From positions 50,224 through 114,223 of the forward strand of contig JBDGRK010000018.1 of the NCBI GenBank assembly GCA_042218075.1: a DNA stretch of 64,000 nucleotides. Direction: 5' to 3'. Of this stretch, positions 7,569-11,105 are shown piece after piece. The notes under the pieces are model-generated. The model saw only the letters and a program-made list of their open reading frames with translations, searched no databases and was not told the origin of the DNA. Both the position numbers and the translations under genes were made by a program. The DNA comes from Candidatus Nanohaloarchaea archaeon (lineage in GTDB: Archaea; Nanohalarchaeota; Nanosalinia; Nanosalinales; Nanosalinaceae). Position 1 is the stretch's first letter. Every line of letters starts with the position of its first letter.

Positions 7569-8015
7569 GTGGGAAAAAGATTCGAAAATGCCGCTGCCGA
7601 TGGCATCGAGAGTGTCGAAAACCCGGAGATAGAAGGAGTAAACGCAAATATAAGCTCTGGTTATAATATTCTGGATGCTTATATTTCGATCTCCACTTTA
7701 CTCAATGAGTTTAATTCTCCGACAATGGTAGTTGAGGCTAAAAATAATACATGCTACGAAGCGGGAGATAGAGCAATCGCAGAAATAAAGGGATATGAAG
7801 ATTGTGGATTGTTCAATCTTATTTTCAAAAATTCAGAGGAACTTCCAGGTCTTTACAGTGGTGAAGAGCCTGAAGCAGTGGTTGAAGATCGAGATGGAGA
7901 TATACAAAGCGGCCAGGTAGTATATTACCAGATTTTACCATATGAAATGGTTGAAAATGATCCAGTTCAAATCACAGGCGAAAATCCAATAGTCCAGAGA
8001 TTTTTCTCGGATTAG
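7569..8015 (+). CDS. Hypothetical acidic protein (start uncertain)
   Basis: Acidic ORF filling the gap; no recognisable motif. Confidence 0.5.
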   Translation: MGKRFENAAADGIESVENPEIEGVNANISSGYNILDAYISISTLLNEFNSPTMVVEAKNNTCYEAGDRAIAEIKGYEDCGLFNLIFKNSEELPGLYSGEEPEAVVEDRDGDIQSGQVVYYQILPYEMVENDPVQITGENPIVQRFFSD

Positions 8016-8557
8016 GGAGTTACCCTTTCCACCTCGTAATAAGTCACCTGCCTCTCCGCGTCGACCACCGCCCAGAGCATCGTTGCTCGAATATTGTGTG
8101 CGAGCCTCACCGCCCTTGACATCTCTTGGAAGCTGGTGTTGTAATCCTCAGGTACTGCATGCACAATCCACTTGGTATGCTCGTGGTCTTCCTTCGGCCC
8201 GTCCTTGTAAGGATTGACTCCCCTTGGATAGACCCTGAAGTGGGCTCCGAACTTGAAACCTGTCTTCACAATAAAACCTCTCTCCCTGAGATCAGAGTAG
8301 GCAGCGTACTTGTGGTCGAACTCGTCATCCTCGCTCGAAAAACGGTGGTAAATCTCCTCCCTCTCCAGTTTTTCACCATCCTCAACTATCTCAAGCTCCT
8401 CCCTATCGACGAGGTGGAGCGCTTCAACGAACGAAAGCTCCAGGTATTCCTCATCGTCAATAAACTTCCCGTAGTAAACCTCATCGTGTATCTTCTCCGC
8501 TTCTTCCTCGTCCCAGACCTTGACCTTGGTGTCAGAAATTTTGCCTTCTGCAGTCAT
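8012..8557 (-). CDS. endA: tRNA splicing endonuclease (tRNA-intron lyase), single-unit type, 181 aa
   Basis: LELSFVEALHL, AYSDLRERGFIVKTGFKFGAHFRVY, EH, VRLAH; start taken at MTAEGK. Confidence 0.95.
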   Translation of the reverse strand: MTAEGKISDTKVKVWDEEEAEKIHDEVYYGKFIDDEEYLELSFVEALHLVDREELEIVEDGEKLEREEIYHRFSSEDDEFDHKYAAYSDLRERGFIVKTGFKFGAHFRVYPRGVNPYKDGPKEDHEHTKWIVHAVPEDYNTSFQEMSRAVRLAHNIRATMLWAVVDAERQVTYYEVERVTP

Positions 8558-8588
8558 AGCAGAAAAAACACAGTGAACTTTTAAATTG

Positions 8589-9286
8589 TCAGAACTCTCC
8601 GAGCCCGCTCTGCTCAGACTCATCGATCAGGTCCTGTGAGGTACTCCAGCTCAACCTTGCCTCCGGCGGGAGTTCGCCTTTCTCTTTCAGGTATTTCTTC
8701 AGGAATTCTCTCGTCGGCTTGTCATGCGGGTAGCCCGACTTGAAGTCGTAGCCGTACTTTTTCTGAAGTTTTTCTACATGCTCCTCCCTTGCCGACTTTG
8801 CCACTATGGAAGCTGCTGATACTATATCATATTCTTCATCTGCCCCGTGCTCCGCCACAAACTTCATATCCTTGAACTTAACCGGCAACTGGTCTTTCAG
8901 CTTCCGGATGAATCGGTCTCCATCCGGCTCCGGCAGATCCACAAATACTTCATCCGCATCCGACCTCCTTATGACGTCAACAAAACCTTTAACCTCGATC
9001 TCGTTCAGGTTCATCACCTGGCTGAGCTCATCTATCTCCGAGGCCTCTATCTCTTTCAGGAAAGTCCTTCCAAGACCATCAAGCTGCTCTCTCAGTCTTT
9101 CCCTTTTCGAATCAGAAAGCTTCTTCGAATCTTTAACTCCAAGTTCGTCCAGTTCGTCCATTCGGGCCTCATCAACCATGAAGCCTCCAATAAACATCGA
9201 GCCGATGACGGGGCCTTTAGGCCAAACAAGACCGGAGATCCCGTTTATCTGCCTGCCTCGTCAACGCCCATGATCTTTTTAGTCAC
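8589..9286 (-). CDS. rnhB: Ribonuclease HII, spliced: complement(join(8589..9216,9249..9286)), 221 aa
   Basis: GTG-TKKIMGVDEAGR | GPVIGSMFIGG; also KDSKKL, VSAASIVAK, SGYPHD. Removing the 32-nt insert gives 666 nt in frame. Confidence 0.9.
9217..9248 (-). other. Putative 32-nt BHB-type mRNA intron in rnhB
   Basis: AGGC-AGA-[UAAACGGGA..UCUUGUUUG]-GCCU-AAA; cutting after nt 2 of each bulge regenerates GGC AGA GGC CCC (GRGP). Confidence 0.8.
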
Positions 9287-10338
9287 AAAACGATCACCCT
9301 TTTATCAGTCTCAACAGTTTCCCATTCGTGATTCTGTTTTTTTATAAGCCCTAGTTCCTCCAGACGATATAGGTTTTTGTACGCAGATTTCTTTCTGACA
9401 GAGAAATATTCAGCTATTTCACTCACTTTAAGCGGATTATCTCTAAGGAGATCGAGGTAATCTGACTTAACTTCAGAAATGATTATCGCATTTTGATCTT
9501 CTCTTATCCAGTATGTAGATCCCTCAGTTTTGTAGTTCATCGCTTTTCCTTCTTCCTTTAGAAGCATTAAGACATCGCATAACCGGGCCTGAGATCTATC
9601 AAATTTTTCAGCCAACTCTCTGGTTTGCCATGGCGTATCCAGAAGTTCGAGGACTTCTTCCTTTAATTGACCTTTCTGATAGTGTGTCTCCTGAAAGCTC
9701 TCATAAATTCTCCAAAACTTATTTCTCTTTCTTAGATGTAGTTTAACAAGATCTAAATCAGCAAATATGTCCCAGTTTCTCTTCCTAGTTATTACGTAGG
9801 ATCTGCTCTCGGCTTTGAAATTATAGTCCAATTCAAAATGATCTAACATAGTTTCTAAGAACTGGTTCTGCGCTCCTTGAGATATCCTTAATCTCCGACT
9901 ATTTCTGGCTCCTTCATAGATGCTTCCCTCACCAGCAAAGAAACCCTGAAGAATATATTGATACAGTTCAGAATCAGATTTTCCCTTTTCAACCGTATTC
10001 TTCCACTTTTTAACAAAATCAGTTGAAGCAAGCCGCAGCAGATAATATGTCTGAGTAGCTCTCTCATCAAAGTAAAATTTAGTTTTAGCTTTTTCCAGAG
10101 AGTTGTAATCAGATCCTTCATTAGGTCTATAGACATACAGTCTGAATCTATCAAGACCGGAAAAATCCCGAATAGTTCTATAGAATAGCTCAACTAGTTC
10201 AAAGCAATTATTTGTGAAAGTAACCTCTCTTTCAGTTTTTGTATCTCCTTCAGCTAACCGAAGTCCTATACATCTAGCTGAATCTTTTTTCATGCCTGAA
10301 AATTCTTTAAACAGCTTAAAAAGACTATTTAATATCAT
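9283..10338 (-). CDS. Free-standing LAGLIDADG endonuclease-like protein with two C-terminal winged HTH domains
   Basis: IGLRLAEGD and ILQGFFAGEGSI motifs; TRELAEKFDRSQ and VSEIAEYFSVRKK HTHs; AT-rich. Confidence 0.8.
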   Translation of the reverse strand: MILNSLFKLFKEFSGMKKDSARCIGLRLAEGDTKTEREVTFTNNCFELVELFYRTIRDFSGLDRFRLYVYRPNEGSDYNSLEKAKTKFYFDERATQTYYLLRLASTDFVKKWKNTVEKGKSDSELYQYILQGFFAGEGSIYEGARNSRRLRISQGAQNQFLETMLDHFELDYNFKAESRSYVITRKRNWDIFADLDLVKLHLRKRNKFWRIYESFQETHYQKGQLKEEVLELLDTPWQTRELAEKFDRSQARLCDVLMLLKEEGKAMNYKTEGSTYWIREDQNAIIISEVKSDYLDLLRDNPLKVSEIAEYFSVRKKSAYKNLYRLEELGLIKKQNHEWETVETDKRVIVL

Positions 10339-10479
10339 TCCACTAGTTCCGTGAGAAAAACTACTGTCTCAGAATAATGGCCTAACAAGTTCGAAAATGA
10401 TAGGAAGATGTCTTAGCTTTTAGTTCGGCCAAGTGATAGTTTAAAAGAATAAACACCGACTCTATTTTTTACACTCTAA

Positions 10480-10554
10480 AGCGGGGTGGAGCAGCCAGGA
10501 GTGCTCGTCGGGCTCATAACCCGGAGGTCCCAGGTTCAAATCCTGGCCCCGCTA
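10480..10554 (+). tRNA. tRNA-Met(CAU), initiator
   Basis: A1-U72, three G-C pairs at the base of the anticodon stem, CAT anticodon. Confidence 0.95.
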
Positions 10555-10565
10555 TTTCAATATAT

Positions 10566-11105
10566 TCATTTTACTTTAGGCTTGTTGCGGGCAATCTCGT
10601 AGAGTTTTGAATACCTGTCAATTAAAGAAACATTCAAATAATAAGATTCATCACAGTTCGGCCCTGTAATATTTGTATTAATATTTAGAGATTCCATCAT
10701 AAGTTTAACATCCTTTAAACCGAGTTTATTAACAGATTTAATCCTCATTCTATTGTATTTCTGTTCGAAATGTCCTTCATCTCTAATAAAGGCTCTTAAC
10801 CATTAGTATTTCTTTTCTTCAGGTAAATCTAGAATTTGCTCCGATATTCTCCAACAATTCGACAAAAATCTTTCAAATTTCTCCTGAATCTGTTTAACTA
10901 TTCCTACAGATTTCACCTTTACTTCATTCCGGTGTCGATACATATCAACACCGTACATTTCCTTCATATCTTTCCTGAACTCTCTCAGATTTGTCTCATC
11001 TTTATTTGTATATATTACAATTGCTCTTCTTTTTCTATCATCTTCATTAGTTTTGTAGAATGAAATATAACCGTCTCCACAAAGCCTTGCGTGTATTCCT
11101 ACCAT
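10566..11105 (-). pseudogene. LAGLIDADG endonuclease pseudogene (in-frame TAA at 10803-10805)
   Basis: HARLCGDG ... KKY*WLRAFIRDEG continues in frame into ORF 10566..10748. Confidence 0.75.

What the first reader, a model, noticed from the sequence alone, without database searches (positions are those of the whole stretch)
9206..9286. Candidate BHB mRNA intron splitting the active-site motif of RNase HII, next to the splicing endonuclease gene
Seen: on the minus strand, GTG ACT AAA AAG ATC ATG GGC GTT GAC GAG GCA GGC AG|A TAAACGGGATCTCCGGTCTTGTTTG GCCT AA|A GGC CCC GTC ATC. The 32-nt insert (9217-9248) carries an in-frame TAA and shifts the frame, so the ORF track loses the catalytic DEAGR. 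It folds as a BHB: 4-bp central helix AGGC/GCCU, 3-nt bulges AGA and AAA, inner stem UAAACGGGA/UCUUGUUUG, and an exon-exon outer helix UGACGAGGC/GCCCCGUCA (8 of 9 bp, one extra G). Established: EndA cuts after nt 2 of each bulge; applied here that gives exactly DEAGR-GPVIG. The well-established archaeal protein-gene intron is in crenarchaeal cbf5; I know of none in rnhB or in nanohaloarchaea. Inference: RNase HII synthesis depends on EndA, encoded by the next gene.
Basis: partly seen in the sequence, partly recalled or inferred. Interest (0 to 1): 0.93.

Follow-up and report, generated by a model that had tools for sequence, protein, structure and literature searches.

The report
Intron splitting an archaeal RNase gene
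A 32-base intron of the kind normally found in archaeal tRNAs interrupts the active-site codons of the RNase HII gene here. It recurs at the same spot in dozens of other archaea and is often accompanied by a neighbouring "homing" DNA-cutting gene. It would be a second, far more widespread case of a protein-gene intron of this type.

Summary
On the minus strand rnhB is split after the AG of the Arg codon of DEAGR by a 32-nt insert (9217-9248). [quoted passage not shown]

It is not an accident of one assembly. The same site is interrupted in 6 of 67 readable genomes of the phylum and in one metagenome contig. It is also interrupted in 58 of 71 loci found through the upstream gene, and in 29 of 371 genomes of another phylum. 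Pairing is kept by compensatory changes: 53 of 58 loci have a full 4-bp central helix exactly at the frame-restoring boundary, against 0-7 of 58 when slid. EndA and RtcB are encoded in this genome. No RNA data exist, so splicing is inferred.

New here: a gene with two LAGLIDADG motifs and winged-helix domains sits directly upstream of rnhB, its stop overlapping the rnhB start. Relatives of it lie directly upstream of rnhB in 71 of 71 loci with room, across many archaeal lineages. None was found in the 61 intronless genomes of the phylum. The likely reading is a mobile homing-endonuclease plus intron cassette ("collaborative homing").

The endA adjacency is family-wide synteny and is not tied to the intron.

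The parts
9249..9286 (-). rnhB exon 1: GTG start, VTKKIMGVDEAG plus the first two bases (AG) of the Arg codon
   Evidence: Aligns with the N-termini of intact orthologues. The GTG overlaps the TGA stop of the upstream gene.
9217..9248 (-). 32-nt BHB intron: third base of the 5' bulge, 11-bp inner stem with a 3-nt loop, 3' strand of the central helix, and the first two bases of the 3' bulge
   Evidence: Absent from 61 orthologous genes of the phylum. Fold; covariation. No second copy in the genome.
8589..9216 (-). rnhB exon 2: last base of the Arg codon, then GPVIG... to the stop
   Evidence: P0001, 208 aa open frame. Pfam RNase_HII E 1.4e-40. Only rnhB match in the 1.1-Mb genome.
9206..9263 (-). 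Whole BHB motif. Outer exon-exon helix 9263-9255 with 9214-9206 (one A.C mismatch; G9215 unpaired). Central helix 9254-9251 with 9222-9219. 5' bulge 9250-9248, 3' bulge 9218-9216. Inner stem 9247-9237 with 9233-9223.
   Evidence: MFE fold. RNAalifold consensus of 7 loci. Pair counts.
9283..10338 (-). Upstream gene: two LAGLIDADG motifs followed by two winged-helix domains. It is a candidate free-standing homing endonuclease. The likely start is the ATG at 10293, which gives 336 aa as in its relatives.
   Evidence: Pfam TrmB E 6.3e-9 and LAGLIDADG_3 E 0.0078, below cut-off. Fold search hits I-DmoI and other LAGLIDADG enzymes. Acidic residues of both motifs are conserved. Relatives lie upstream of rnhB in 71 of 71 loci with room.
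8012..8560 (-). endA, single alpha-type tRNA-intron endonuclease (182 aa)
   Evidence: Pfam N-terminal and catalytic domains. NCBIfam TIGR00324 at 106.8 bits against a cut-off of 59.6. Only match above cut-off in the genome.
10439..10446 (-). TATA-like box, the same motif that precedes rnhB in intronless relatives. Here it lies upstream of the LAGLIDADG gene, so that gene and rnhB probably share the native rnhB promoter.
   Evidence: Sequence compared with the upstream regions printed. The promoter role is inferred.
10480..10554 (+). tRNA-Met gene, divergent from rnhB as in intronless relatives. It marks the old upstream boundary of the rnhB locus.
   Evidence: ARAGORN. Rfam tRNA 59 bits. The same tRNA end is seen upstream of rnhB in relatives.

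Best explanation
The insert is a genuine archaeal bulge-helix-bulge intron in the rnhB messenger.

Mechanism. The pre-mRNA folds so that exon bases (the wobble positions of the Ala and Gly codons of DEAG) pair with the 3' end of the intron in a 4-bp helix flanked by two 3-nt bulges. The splicing endonuclease EndA cuts after the second base of each bulge. RtcB joins the exons and recreates the Arg codon, so the DEAGR|GPVIG catalytic motif is restored, and the 32-nt intron is released. Without this step no active RNase HII can be made from the only rnhB gene.

Shown here: the structure, its exact register with the frame-restoring boundaries, its conservation by compensatory change in about 87 loci, and the presence of EndA and RtcB.
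Inferred: that cleavage and ligation occur.

The confidence given (0.85) is for this intron claim.

Second layer, my odds about 0.55. The intron is half of a selfish cassette. The gene directly upstream is a two-motif LAGLIDADG homing endonuclease that cuts intronless rnhB at or near this very conserved site. The intron breaks that target in the carrier genome and costs nothing after splicing. Double-strand-break repair then copies endonuclease gene, exon 1 and intron together into naive alleles (collaborative homing). The endonuclease gene later decays and is lost, while the intron stays.
For: Register and restoration
- Joining AG to A gives DEAGR|GPVIG. Orthologues in 61 of 67 readable genomes of the phylum have exactly that sequence without the insert.

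Recurrence
- Inserts of 29-33 nt sit at the same site in G058, G060, G028, G041 and G038, and in metagenome locus L035.
- 58 of 71 loci reached through the upstream gene carry inserts of 21-52 nt.
- 29 of 371 genomes of another phylum match an interrupted-gene pattern, against 0 for the reversed-pattern control.

Structure and covariation
- On 7 aligned loci, 91.0% of cells pair against 78.3% in shuffles (0 of 500 reach the observed value).
- 9 pairs change on both sides (3 of 500 shuffles reach this). The covariation score is 0.503 against 0.237 (0 of 500). Slid registers pair in 25-52% of cells.
- RNAalifold finds the same consensus.
- At the one deletion that restores the motif, the 4-bp central helix is complete in 53 of 58 loci and 3 of 4 in the other 5. 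It uses 26 different helix sequences.
- Sliding the 3' side by 1-4 nt leaves 0-7 of 58 complete.
- In the pattern-ascertained set the helix is complete in 25 of 27 loci.

The insert must be removed
- 40 of 58 inserts shift the frame, and all 18 that are multiples of three carry in-frame stops.

Machinery
- endA and RtcB at 535.6 bits are present. EndA was also found in 4 of 4 carrier genomes checked from other lineages.

Rule for the cut
- Cleavage between the second and third bulge residues is stated for the cbf5 intron (PMC2738675, passage read).

Cassette
- Full-length relatives of the upstream gene occur in 5 of 70 genomes of the phylum, all directly upstream of an interrupted rnhB. None was found in the 61 intronless genomes.
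- Across all species genomes 72 loci were found, and rnhB follows in 71 of the 71 with room.
- Eleven of the 12 such loci without an insert have an altered motif: DDSGR, DDAGR, DEAGK or DEARR.
- The fold resembles I-DmoI (prob 1.00, TM to target 0.54-0.62).
- Intron alleles are scattered on the rnhB tree. Six changes are needed, and well-supported branches force at least 4. G038 and G058 nest among intronless genus mates.
- G058's first 60 nt of exon 2 match other intron alleles (67-70%) better than genus mates (48-55%). Further on they match mates at 80-90%.
- Exon 1 of G038 is two codons longer than in its mates and resembles that of other carriers.
- The upstream protein is on average more alike between loci (43.8%) than RNase HII exon 2 (40.0%), and up to 23 points more in single pairs.
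Against: Against or limiting the intron claim
- No spliced RNA or circular intron has been seen.
- The 3' side is not strictly canonical. One G (two in G028) is unpaired between the bulge and the outer helix, and the outer helix has an A.C mismatch.
- The genome has a single alpha-type EndA, a type classically described as strict. A passage in PMC5829648 links DPANN alpha4 enzymes carrying an extra loop with more disrupted tRNAs.
- The MFE of L035 slips the register by one base.
- G041 and G038 have a mismatch in the first pair of the central helix.

Against the cassette layer
- No cleavage assay exists.
- Pfam LAGLIDADG_3 scores below its cut-off, 16.9 against 22.5 bits.
- A profile search of PDB sequences found only winged-helix proteins.
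- The structure model is of low confidence, mean pLDDT 59.
- In the intron-ascertained sample only 6 of 29 loci have the gene upstream, plus 1 remnant. G041 has a Usp gene there instead. The intron therefore persists without the gene and may be older than it.
- Similar exon flanks among carriers could reflect the pairing constraint rather than co-conversion.
- The scattered distribution could also come from many precise losses.
Confidence: 0.85

Rival explanations
1. The intron is real, but the upstream LAGLIDADG/winged-helix protein is not a mobile nuclease. It would be a domesticated DNA- or RNA-binding factor (WhiA-like regulator or maturase-like helper) co-expressed with rnhB. On this reading the scattered distribution reflects an ancient intron with many losses.
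For: Two C-terminal winged-helix domains match transcription-factor families. The best fold hit is a maturase, bI3, and WhiA appears at rank 44. The intron exists without the gene in 22 of 29 loci of another phylum. The protein is well conserved, at 43.8% mean identity, which could reflect host-level selection.
Against: BHB splicing needs no maturase. The acidic residue of both LAGLIDADG motifs is kept: it is invariant in the second motif and present in at least 90% of 18 diverse members in the first. That domesticated forms usually lose these residues is recalled and was not tested. The gene is rare and scattered, in 5 of 70 genomes of the phylum. It shows decay: an in-frame stop in G060, a deleted second domain in G028, and 14 of 72 frames shorter than 320 codons. 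It nests among genus mates that lack it. These are the marks of a selfish element, not of a needed factor.
Confidence: 0.3
2. The insert is not removed from the RNA. Ribosomes hop over it instead (programmed translational bypass, as over the 50-nt gap of phage T4 gene 60).
For: A stop codon follows the last exon-1 codon directly in G000 and G058, and a hairpin lies in the gap. The T4 gap is likewise linked to a homing-endonuclease gene (recalled, not read here).
Against: There are no matched take-off and landing codons in G000: AGA before the gap, AAA before exon 2. The conserved feature is the 3-4-3 BHB geometry, with covariation between exon wobble bases and the 3' end of the insert. That geometry is what EndA reads, and bypassing has no use for it. 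The insert position moves by -1 or +2 nt between lineages, always with the helix.
Confidence: 0.03
3. rnhB is a pseudogene killed by a 32-nt insertion, and the fold is fortuitous.
For: The unspliced reading frame is broken. BHB-like shapes occur at the chance rate genome-wide.
Against: Exon 2 is open over 208 codons, scores as a full RNase HII and is the only copy. The same site is interrupted in about 87 loci, with different insert sequences that all keep the pairing. Every one of the 58 restores the motif on removal.
Confidence: 0.02
4. The insert is an assembly artefact.
For: One run's contigs break at 9193/9212, close to the insert.
Against: A 20.6-kb contig of one run spans the insert with no difference. 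A contig of a second run from another study covers 9212-9900 identically. A diverged contig of a third run carries it without gaps. Independent assemblies of other species have it too.
Confidence: 0.01

Closest known systems
BHB intron in crenarchaeal cbf5 pre-mRNA (Watanabe 2002; Yokobori 2009, PMC2738675)
   Same: A short BHB intron inside a protein-coding gene. The predicted cuts lie between the second and third bulge residues. Distribution among related species is patchy.
   Different: A different gene (rnhB, inside the catalytic DEAGRG codons) and different lineages (Nanohaloarchaeota, other DPANN groups, and loci labelled Nitrososphaeria). The hosts have alpha4-, (alpha-beta)2- and epsilon2-like EndA sets. 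It is linked to a LAGLIDADG gene. The cbf5 paper argues for one gain and a few losses, and its splicing was shown by cDNA; splicing is not shown here.
Collaborative homing: cyanophage S-PM2 psbA group I intron plus the free-standing endonuclease F-CphI (Zeng, Bonocora, Shub 2009, as described in PMC6083498)
   Same: The endonuclease gene lies outside but next to an intron-containing gene. The intron sits in a highly conserved coding site and would shield the carrier from its own nuclease. Both can move together.
   Different: The intron here is a protein-spliced BHB mini-intron, not a self-splicing ribozyme. The nuclease family is LAGLIDADG, not EndoVII-like. The hosts are cellular archaea, not phages. 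Cleavage and protection are untested here.
I-DmoI and other LAGLIDADG endonucleases encoded inside archaeal rRNA BHB introns
   Same: Two-motif monomeric LAGLIDADG fold and association with an archaeal BHB intron.
   Different: The gene here is outside the intron, which is far too small to hold it. It also carries two extra winged-helix domains, and the target is a protein gene.
BHB intron in the 5' UTR of Haloferax volcanii HVO_1309 (PMC7714728)
   Same: EndA acts on an mRNA.
   Different: That intron lies in the untranslated leader and does not interrupt a reading frame.
Phage T4 gene 60 coding gap with the mobA endonuclease gene
   Same: A short insert in a conserved gene, neutralised at the level of expression and linked to a homing-endonuclease gene.
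   Different: The T4 gap is bypassed by the ribosome. Here the conserved features are those of an EndA substrate.

Membership tests
Archaeal BHB intron (EndA/RtcB-spliced) | Two 3-nt bulges on opposite strands separated by a 4-bp helix | tested here: met
   AGGC/GCCU between the AGA and AAA bulges. The helix is complete in 53 of 58 and 25 of 27 other loci, against 0-7 of 58 when slid.
Archaeal BHB intron (EndA/RtcB-spliced) | Flanking helices on both sides (hBHBh') | tested here: met
   11-bp inner stem. The outer helix pairs at 8 of 9 positions, but with one unpaired G next to the 3' bulge. Helix 1 has 91.1% of cells paired and helix 3 has 90.3% across 7 loci.
Archaeal BHB intron (EndA/RtcB-spliced) | Cuts after the second base of each bulge give a functional junction | tested here: met
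   The junction gives DEAGR|GPVIG in frame. The same rule restores the motif in 58 of 58 inserts resolved. The rule comes from PMC2738675.
Archaeal BHB intron (EndA/RtcB-spliced) | Host encodes the splicing endonuclease and RtcB ligase | tested here: met
Archaeal BHB intron (EndA/RtcB-spliced) | Spliced RNA, circular intron or in vitro cleavage observed | not testable with these tools
   No RNA run was listed for this DNA.
LAGLIDADG homing endonuclease | Two LAGLIDADG motifs with conserved acidic residues | tested here: met
   The motifs end in AEGD and GEG. The Glu is invariant in the second motif and present in at least 90% in the first, over 18 diverse members. That these are the catalytic positions is recalled from I-DmoI.
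LAGLIDADG homing endonuclease | Family profile match above the curated threshold | tested here: not met
   Pfam LAGLIDADG_3 scores 16.9 bits against a cut-off of 22.5. No LAGLIDADG chain was found by sequence in the PDB.
LAGLIDADG homing endonuclease | Characteristic fold | tested here: inconclusive
   Foldseek finds I-DmoI, bI3 maturase, E-DreI and PI-SceI with prob 1.00 and TM to target up to 0.62. The model has mean pLDDT 59.
LAGLIDADG homing endonuclease | Site-specific cleavage of the allele that lacks it | not testable with these tools
   Needs a bench assay.
Collaborative-homing cassette (free-standing HEG plus intron) | Endonuclease gene outside the intron and adjacent to the intron-bearing gene; the two co-occur | tested here: met
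   rnhB follows in 71 of 71 loci with room, and 58 of those (plus one probable) have the insert. In the phylum 5 of 6 intron genomes have the gene, and none of the 61 intronless genomes does. The reverse link is weaker: 6 of 29 intron loci of another phylum have it.
Collaborative-homing cassette (free-standing HEG plus intron) | The nuclease cuts at the intron insertion site and the intron blocks cutting | not testable with these tools
   Only indirect evidence: 11 of 12 carriers without the intron have an altered motif at the site.
Programmed translational bypass (T4 gene 60 type) | Matched take-off and landing codons flanking the gap | tested here: not met
   AGA before the gap and AAA at its end in G000. 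The 3' bulge varies widely across loci.

The most novel reading that the evidence does not exclude
A selfish two-part element spreads through archaeal genomes by homing into the RNase HII gene. One part is a free-standing LAGLIDADG endonuclease gene placed between the rnhB promoter and start codon. The other is a protein-spliced BHB mini-intron that splits the nuclease's own target in the catalytic codons. It would occur in DPANN lineages, Nitrososphaeria-labelled genomes and possibly others. If true, it is the first case of collaborative homing with a BHB intron. It would also give a concrete route by which tRNA-type introns colonise protein-coding genes, with the endonuclease gene later decaying to leave orphan introns.
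Probability: 0.5. Interest if true: 0.92.

Novelty: new variant of a known kind. Interest (0 to 1): 0.88.

Why it matters
For more than twenty years the only coding-region BHB intron reported in archaea has been the one in crenarchaeal cbf5. A 2020 paper still says so (PMC7714728, passage read).

This finding adds a second gene. The insert sits in the middle of a catalytic motif and occurs in about 87 loci of several archaeal lineages.

Practical consequence: gene callers truncate or drop rnhB in these genomes. As a result, "missing RNase HII" or "pseudogene" calls in small archaeal genomes may be wrong.

Conceptual consequence: the link to a LAGLIDADG gene offers a testable mechanism for how such introns are gained and why they sit in the most conserved codons. 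It also makes RNase HII expression dependent on the tRNA-splicing machinery.

The short, well-defined substrates with three slightly shifted insertion positions are ready-made material for studying EndA specificity in alpha4-, (alpha-beta)2- and epsilon2-type hosts.

Tried and rejected
RNA evidence: the look-up of sequencing runs listed no RNA holder, so nothing can be said about expression.

DNA contigs of four runs were laid. They show that the insert is present, not how it is used.

The intron has no second copy in the genome (blastn-short), so no donor tRNA intron was identified.

The metagenome pattern scan gave 3 loci. L033 and L034 are chance matches without rnhB, and only L035 is real.

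Genome-wide scan of G000 for further coding-region BHB introns:
- It gave 188 candidates, about the shuffled rate.
- 17 rows (16 sites) passed an ORF-bridging filter, including rnhB.
- I read the top rows only. They contain a stop codon, a TATA-like stretch and an ATG inside the supposed intron, so they look like ordinary gene boundaries.
- None was followed with homology searches, so further introns are neither found nor excluded. Short first exons like this one would escape the filter.

Sequence-level support for the LAGLIDADG assignment was weak. The assignment rests on motifs and a low-confidence fold.

The LAGLIDADG-like fragments at 10566-11105 show no significant similarity to the main upstream gene (E 0.14).

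The idea that endA adjacency is functionally tied to the intron was rejected.

Whole-gene transfer of rnhB together with the intron was rejected. G000 exon 2 is 71% identical to a genus mate but only 67% and 60% identical to carriers G058 and G060, and carriers nest with intronless mates.

L130 could not be resolved by the script. By eye it has a longer insert.

Rows dropped:
- Tree: 68 rows. Loci whose match did not start within the first 3 residues, or that gave fewer than 150 residues, were left out.
- Identity comparison: 54 of 72 loci, those with an upstream-gene frame of at least 320 codons and an rnhB match of at least 190 residues.
- Census: G013 and G006 are cut by contig ends, and G037 has no match.

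Literature searches for an rnhB or DPANN coding-region BHB intron, or a LAGLIDADG link, found none. Subscription journals and supplementary files were not searchable. The supplementary tRNA/EndA tables of PMC5829648 could bear on the EndA type of this lineage.

Complex prediction, the viral collections and the protein-atlas search were not used.
Full report
THE OBSERVATION

A GTG at 9286 opens VTKKIMGVDEAG. An AGA codon follows, then at once TAA. Thirty-two bases later the frame GPVIGSMFIGG... opens and runs 208 codons to a stop at 8589.

That second piece matches Pfam RNase_HII at E 1.4e-40 from profile position 9 of 199, so only the N-terminal catalytic motif is missing.
- an exon-exon outer helix;
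- a 4-bp helix, AGGC with GCCU;
- a 3-nt 5' bulge, AGA;
- an 11-bp inner stem with a 3-nt loop;
- a 3' bulge AAA followed by one unpaired G.

The energy is -31.1 kcal/mol, z -3.07, and 1 of 200 shuffles folds as well.

IS IT MORE THAN CHANCE?

The shape alone is not. A strict scan of the whole 1.1-Mb genome found 188 BHB-like sites, about the shuffled rate (25 real against 24 shuffled on the largest contig).

The weight lies in the register. The two bulges sit exactly at the ends of an insert that orthologues lack. In the 70 genomes held for this phylum:
- rnhB was found in 69;
- its 5' end is readable in 67;
- 61 have DEAGR and GP(V/A)(I/L)G contiguous (one has DEAAR);
- 6 are interrupted at the same place: G000 32 nt, G058 33, G060 32, G028 33, G041 30, G038 29.

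G013 and G006 are cut by contig ends, and G037 gave no match. G000 has only this one rnhB.

A scan of metagenome contigs with a degenerate pattern for an interrupted gene found one more case, L035. Its 32-nt insert has an unrelated sequence. The other two matches were chance.

CONSERVATION OF THE STRUCTURE

All seven regions fold on their own into the same architecture. On their alignment (A1), counts for the structure I specified were as follows:
- 91.0% of cells pair against 78.3% in shuffles (0 of 500 reach the observed value);
- 9 pairs change on both sides (3 of 500 shuffles reach this);
- the covariation score is 0.503 against 0.237 (0 of 500);
- slid registers pair in only 25-52% of cells.

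RNAalifold predicts the same consensus unaided.

The most telling pairs are in the central helix. There the 5' strand is the wobble base of the Ala codon and the whole Gly codon of DEAG. The first pair is A-U in three loci, G-C in one, U-A in one and unpaired in two. The fourth is C-G in four, U-G in two and U-A in one. The intron's 3' end therefore tracks synonymous changes in the exon.

The seven loci are related and few, so these figures alone would be modest. The larger sets below remove that doubt.

DNA SUPPORT

A 20.6-kb contig of run X1 spans the region without a difference. A contig of run X2, from another study, covers 9212-9900 identically. Both runs may be the source of the window, so they are not independent support.

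A 118-nt contig of run X3 (same study as X2) is diverged by 14 differences and covers 9205-9320 without gaps. The two differences listed inside the intron turn a G-U pair into A-U and an A-U pair into G-U. Another X3 contig matches exon 2 up to 9216 and then runs straight into a relative's ...LGIDEAGR coding sequence. That is an intronless allele joined exactly at the predicted junction.

No RNA run was listed.

MACHINERY AND THE ENDA NEIGHBOUR

The gene after rnhB is a 182-aa alpha-type EndA: Pfam N-terminal and catalytic domains, and TIGR00324 at 106.8 bits. It is the only match above cut-off in the genome. RtcB is present at 535.6 bits. ARAGORN predicts introns in 16 of 23 tRNA genes it found (unverified and incomplete). 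The organism therefore relies heavily on this pathway.

The adjacency itself means little. endA follows rnhB in all 22 intronless loci of family f1 that had 1500 nt of room. It does not follow it in the 7 loci of families f3 and f4 examined with that much room, nor in the intron-bearing loci of G028, G041 and L035.

THE UPSTREAM GENE

The ORF at 9283-10338 ends in a TGA that overlaps the GTG of rnhB. It has two LAGLIDADG-type motifs, ending in AEGD and GEGS, and two winged-helix domains. Pfam gives TrmB at E 6.3e-9 and LAGLIDADG_3 only at E 0.0078, below cut-off.

A profile search of PDB sequences found only winged-helix proteins. An AlphaFold model built from three sequences is of low confidence: mean pLDDT 59, better over residues 20-215. 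Foldseek nevertheless ranks LAGLIDADG enzymes first: bI3 maturase, many I-DmoI entries with TM to target 0.54-0.62, E-DreI and PI-SceI. WhiA appears at rank 44.

In G000 the gene lies between the TATA-like box and divergent tRNA-Met that precede rnhB in intronless relatives, and the rnhB start. It has been slotted in behind the native promoter.

ASSOCIATION WITHIN THE PHYLUM

Full-length relatives of the gene exist in G000, G058 (63%), G038 (56%), G060 (56%, one in-frame TAG) and G028 (42%, lacking the second LAGLIDADG domain). Each lies directly upstream of an interrupted rnhB.

Four further weak hits (E about 1e-4) cover only a winged-helix stretch, on contigs other than the one with rnhB. 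G041 has the intron but a Usp-family gene upstream. So 5 of 6 intron genomes carry the gene, and it was not found in any of the 61 intronless ones.

On a maximum-likelihood tree of exon 2 (68 rows) the intron alleles are scattered. Six changes of state are needed, and well-supported branches force at least four. G038 sits inside its genus next to intronless G034 and G036. G058 groups with intronless G057 and G059 at 100/99 support.

Along exon 2, G058's first 60 nt are 48-55% identical to those two mates but 67-70% to carriers G000, G060 and G041. From base 61 onward identity to G057 rises, reaching 80-90% over most of the next 400 nt. Exon 1 of G038 is two codons longer than in its mates and resembles that of G041 and G000.

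These patterns fit insertion of a cassette (endonuclease gene, exon 1, intron) into resident genes by gene conversion. The shared exon flanks are also under pairing constraint, so this is suggestive only.

BEYOND THE PHYLUM

The protein has 47 relatives in the large protein collection. Some are named by their sources as from Nanoarchaeota, Diapherotrites and Micrarchaeota.

A scan of one genome per prokaryotic species with an 18-member alignment found 72 loci. By the submitters' titles they are:
- Woesearchaeota 19;
- Nitrososphaeria or Thaumarchaeota 7;
- Micrarchaeota 6;
- Nanoarchaeota 6;
- Pacearchaeota 5;
- Aenigmatarchaeota 5;
- "Methanosarcinales" 5;
- Thermoplasmata or Thermoplasmatales 4;
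- Nanohaloarchaeota 3;
- one each of Iainarchaeum, Altiarchaeota and Norongarragalinales;
- 9 unlabelled.

Such titles of metagenome bins can be wrong.

In 71 of these loci RNase HII follows directly. The remaining locus ends 11 nt after the gene.

For each locus I asked which single deletion restores D(E/D)xG(R/K)G in frame with exon 2:
- 12 loci need none;
- 58 have one solution, of 21-52 nt;
- 1 (L130) was not resolved.

At that boundary, with cuts after the second bulge base, the central helix has 4 of 4 pairs in 53 loci and 3 of 4 in 5. It uses 26 different helix sequences. Sliding the 3' side by 1-4 nt leaves 0-7 of 58 complete. One to six equivalent boundaries existed per locus and the best was taken, which is a mild bias.

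Forty inserts shift the frame, and all 18 that are multiples of three carry in-frame stops.

The cut falls after AG of the Arg codon in 47 loci, one base earlier in 6, and two bases later in 5. The last group is mostly Micrarchaeota-labelled loci.

Eleven of the 12 uninterrupted carriers have an altered motif (DDSGR, DDAGR, DEAGK, DEARR). The twelfth has the standard motif and a shortened endonuclease frame.

The endonuclease frame is open for at least 320 codons in 58 of 72 loci.

Between the 54 loci with both proteins, the endonuclease is on average more alike (43.8%) than RNase HII exon 2 (40.0%). Single pairs differ by up to 23 points. For a selfish gene this suggests transfer between lineages, though strong selection could do the same.

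INTRON WITHOUT THE GENE

In a sample of 371 genomes of the phylum of G070, a strict pattern for an interrupted rnhB matched 29. The reversed-pattern control matched none.

Of the 27 loci newly fetched, 25 have a complete central helix at the restoring boundary and 2 have 3 of 4 pairs.

Only 6 of the 29 have the endonuclease gene upstream. One more has a remnant, and 22 have none within 1400 nt. The intron is thus commoner than the gene.

That fits the usual life cycle of homing elements: the nuclease gene decays, while the intron needs a precise deletion to go. It equally allows the intron to be older than the gene.

EndA genes were found in all four carrier genomes checked from other groups. 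The four genomes gave one, two, one and three matches, the last including a 383-codon frame. The substrate is therefore apparently handled by different EndA architectures.

WHAT IS KNOWN

Passages read in PMC7714728 (2020) state that besides tRNA and rRNA only the cbf5 mRNA intron had been reported. That paper adds a BHB intron in a 5' UTR of Haloferax.

PMC2738675 describes gain and loss of the cbf5 intron and the cut between the second and third bulge residues.

PMC5829648 notes alpha4 EndAs with an extra loop in DPANN lineages, together with more disrupted tRNAs.

PMC12397907 (2025) cites only the cbf5 papers for mRNA.

Collaborative homing is described in a passage of PMC6083498.

Seven searches for an rnhB or DPANN coding-region BHB intron, or a LAGLIDADG link, found nothing. 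The library lacks most subscription journals.

The T4 gene 60/mobA parallel and the catalytic roles of the I-DmoI residues are recalled, not read here.

VERDICT

That it is spliced by EndA and RtcB is inferred from geometry, covariation and the presence of the enzymes.

The link with a LAGLIDADG gene is firm as an association. Its interpretation as a collaborative-homing cassette is my preferred mechanism, at about even odds, and needs a cleavage assay.

Noticed in passing
window 10566-11105 (-): A second LAGLIDADG-like gene just beyond the tRNA-Met gene, broken by one in-frame TAA. The 100-aa ORF at 10803-11105 carries a GDG-type motif and matches phrog_4645 'endonuclease' at E 1.1e-4. After the TAA the frame continues into the 60-aa ORF at 10566-10748 and shows a second motif by eye. 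It has no significant similarity to the main upstream gene (E 0.14). It may be the remnant of another homing element next to the tRNA gene.
   Followed up: partly
loci L090, L102, L109, L116, L118-L120, L123, L133, L134, L138, L147, L150-L152, L154, L155, L159: All 18 rnhB introns whose length is a multiple of three contain in-frame stop codons. No unspliced message can therefore yield an RNase HII with an insertion in its active site. This looks selected rather than accidental.
   Followed up: partly
loci L092, L094, L098, L103, L105, L107, L108, L110, L111, L140, L148 (and L146): Loci that have the endonuclease gene but no intron carry a changed catalytic motif (DDSGR, DDAGR, DEAGK, DEARR) instead of DEAGR. 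This may be resistance of the target by substitution. L146 keeps DEAGR and has a shortened endonuclease frame.
   Followed up: partly
G000 whole genome: ARAGORN predicts introns in 16 of 23 tRNA genes it finds, several at unusual positions. The list is incomplete: the tRNA-Met at window 10480-10554 was missed in that run. The predictions were not verified.
   Followed up: no
window 9193-9212: The contigs of run X2 break here, 5-24 nt from the intron, while run X1 spans the region. This may reflect low depth or a mixture of strains with and without the insert.
   Followed up: no
rnhB-endA loci of family f1 (L002-L023, L038, L039): rnhB and endA are neighbours throughout one family of the phylum but not in the sister families examined. 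The pairing is a conserved synteny of unknown meaning.
   Followed up: partly
G001 contigs C13 and C32 (L002, L085): This genus mate has two nearly identical, uninterrupted rnhB-endA loci on two contigs. This could be a duplication, strain mixture or a binning artefact.
   Followed up: no
loci L152, L154, L159, L132, L122, L184-L186 and L102, L114, L136, L143, L149, L150: The intron position is shifted by +2 nt (after the first base of the Gly codon) or by -1 nt (after the first base of the Arg codon) in some lineages, and the central helix moves with it. This could be intron sliding or independent insertions within the same few bases.
   Followed up: partly
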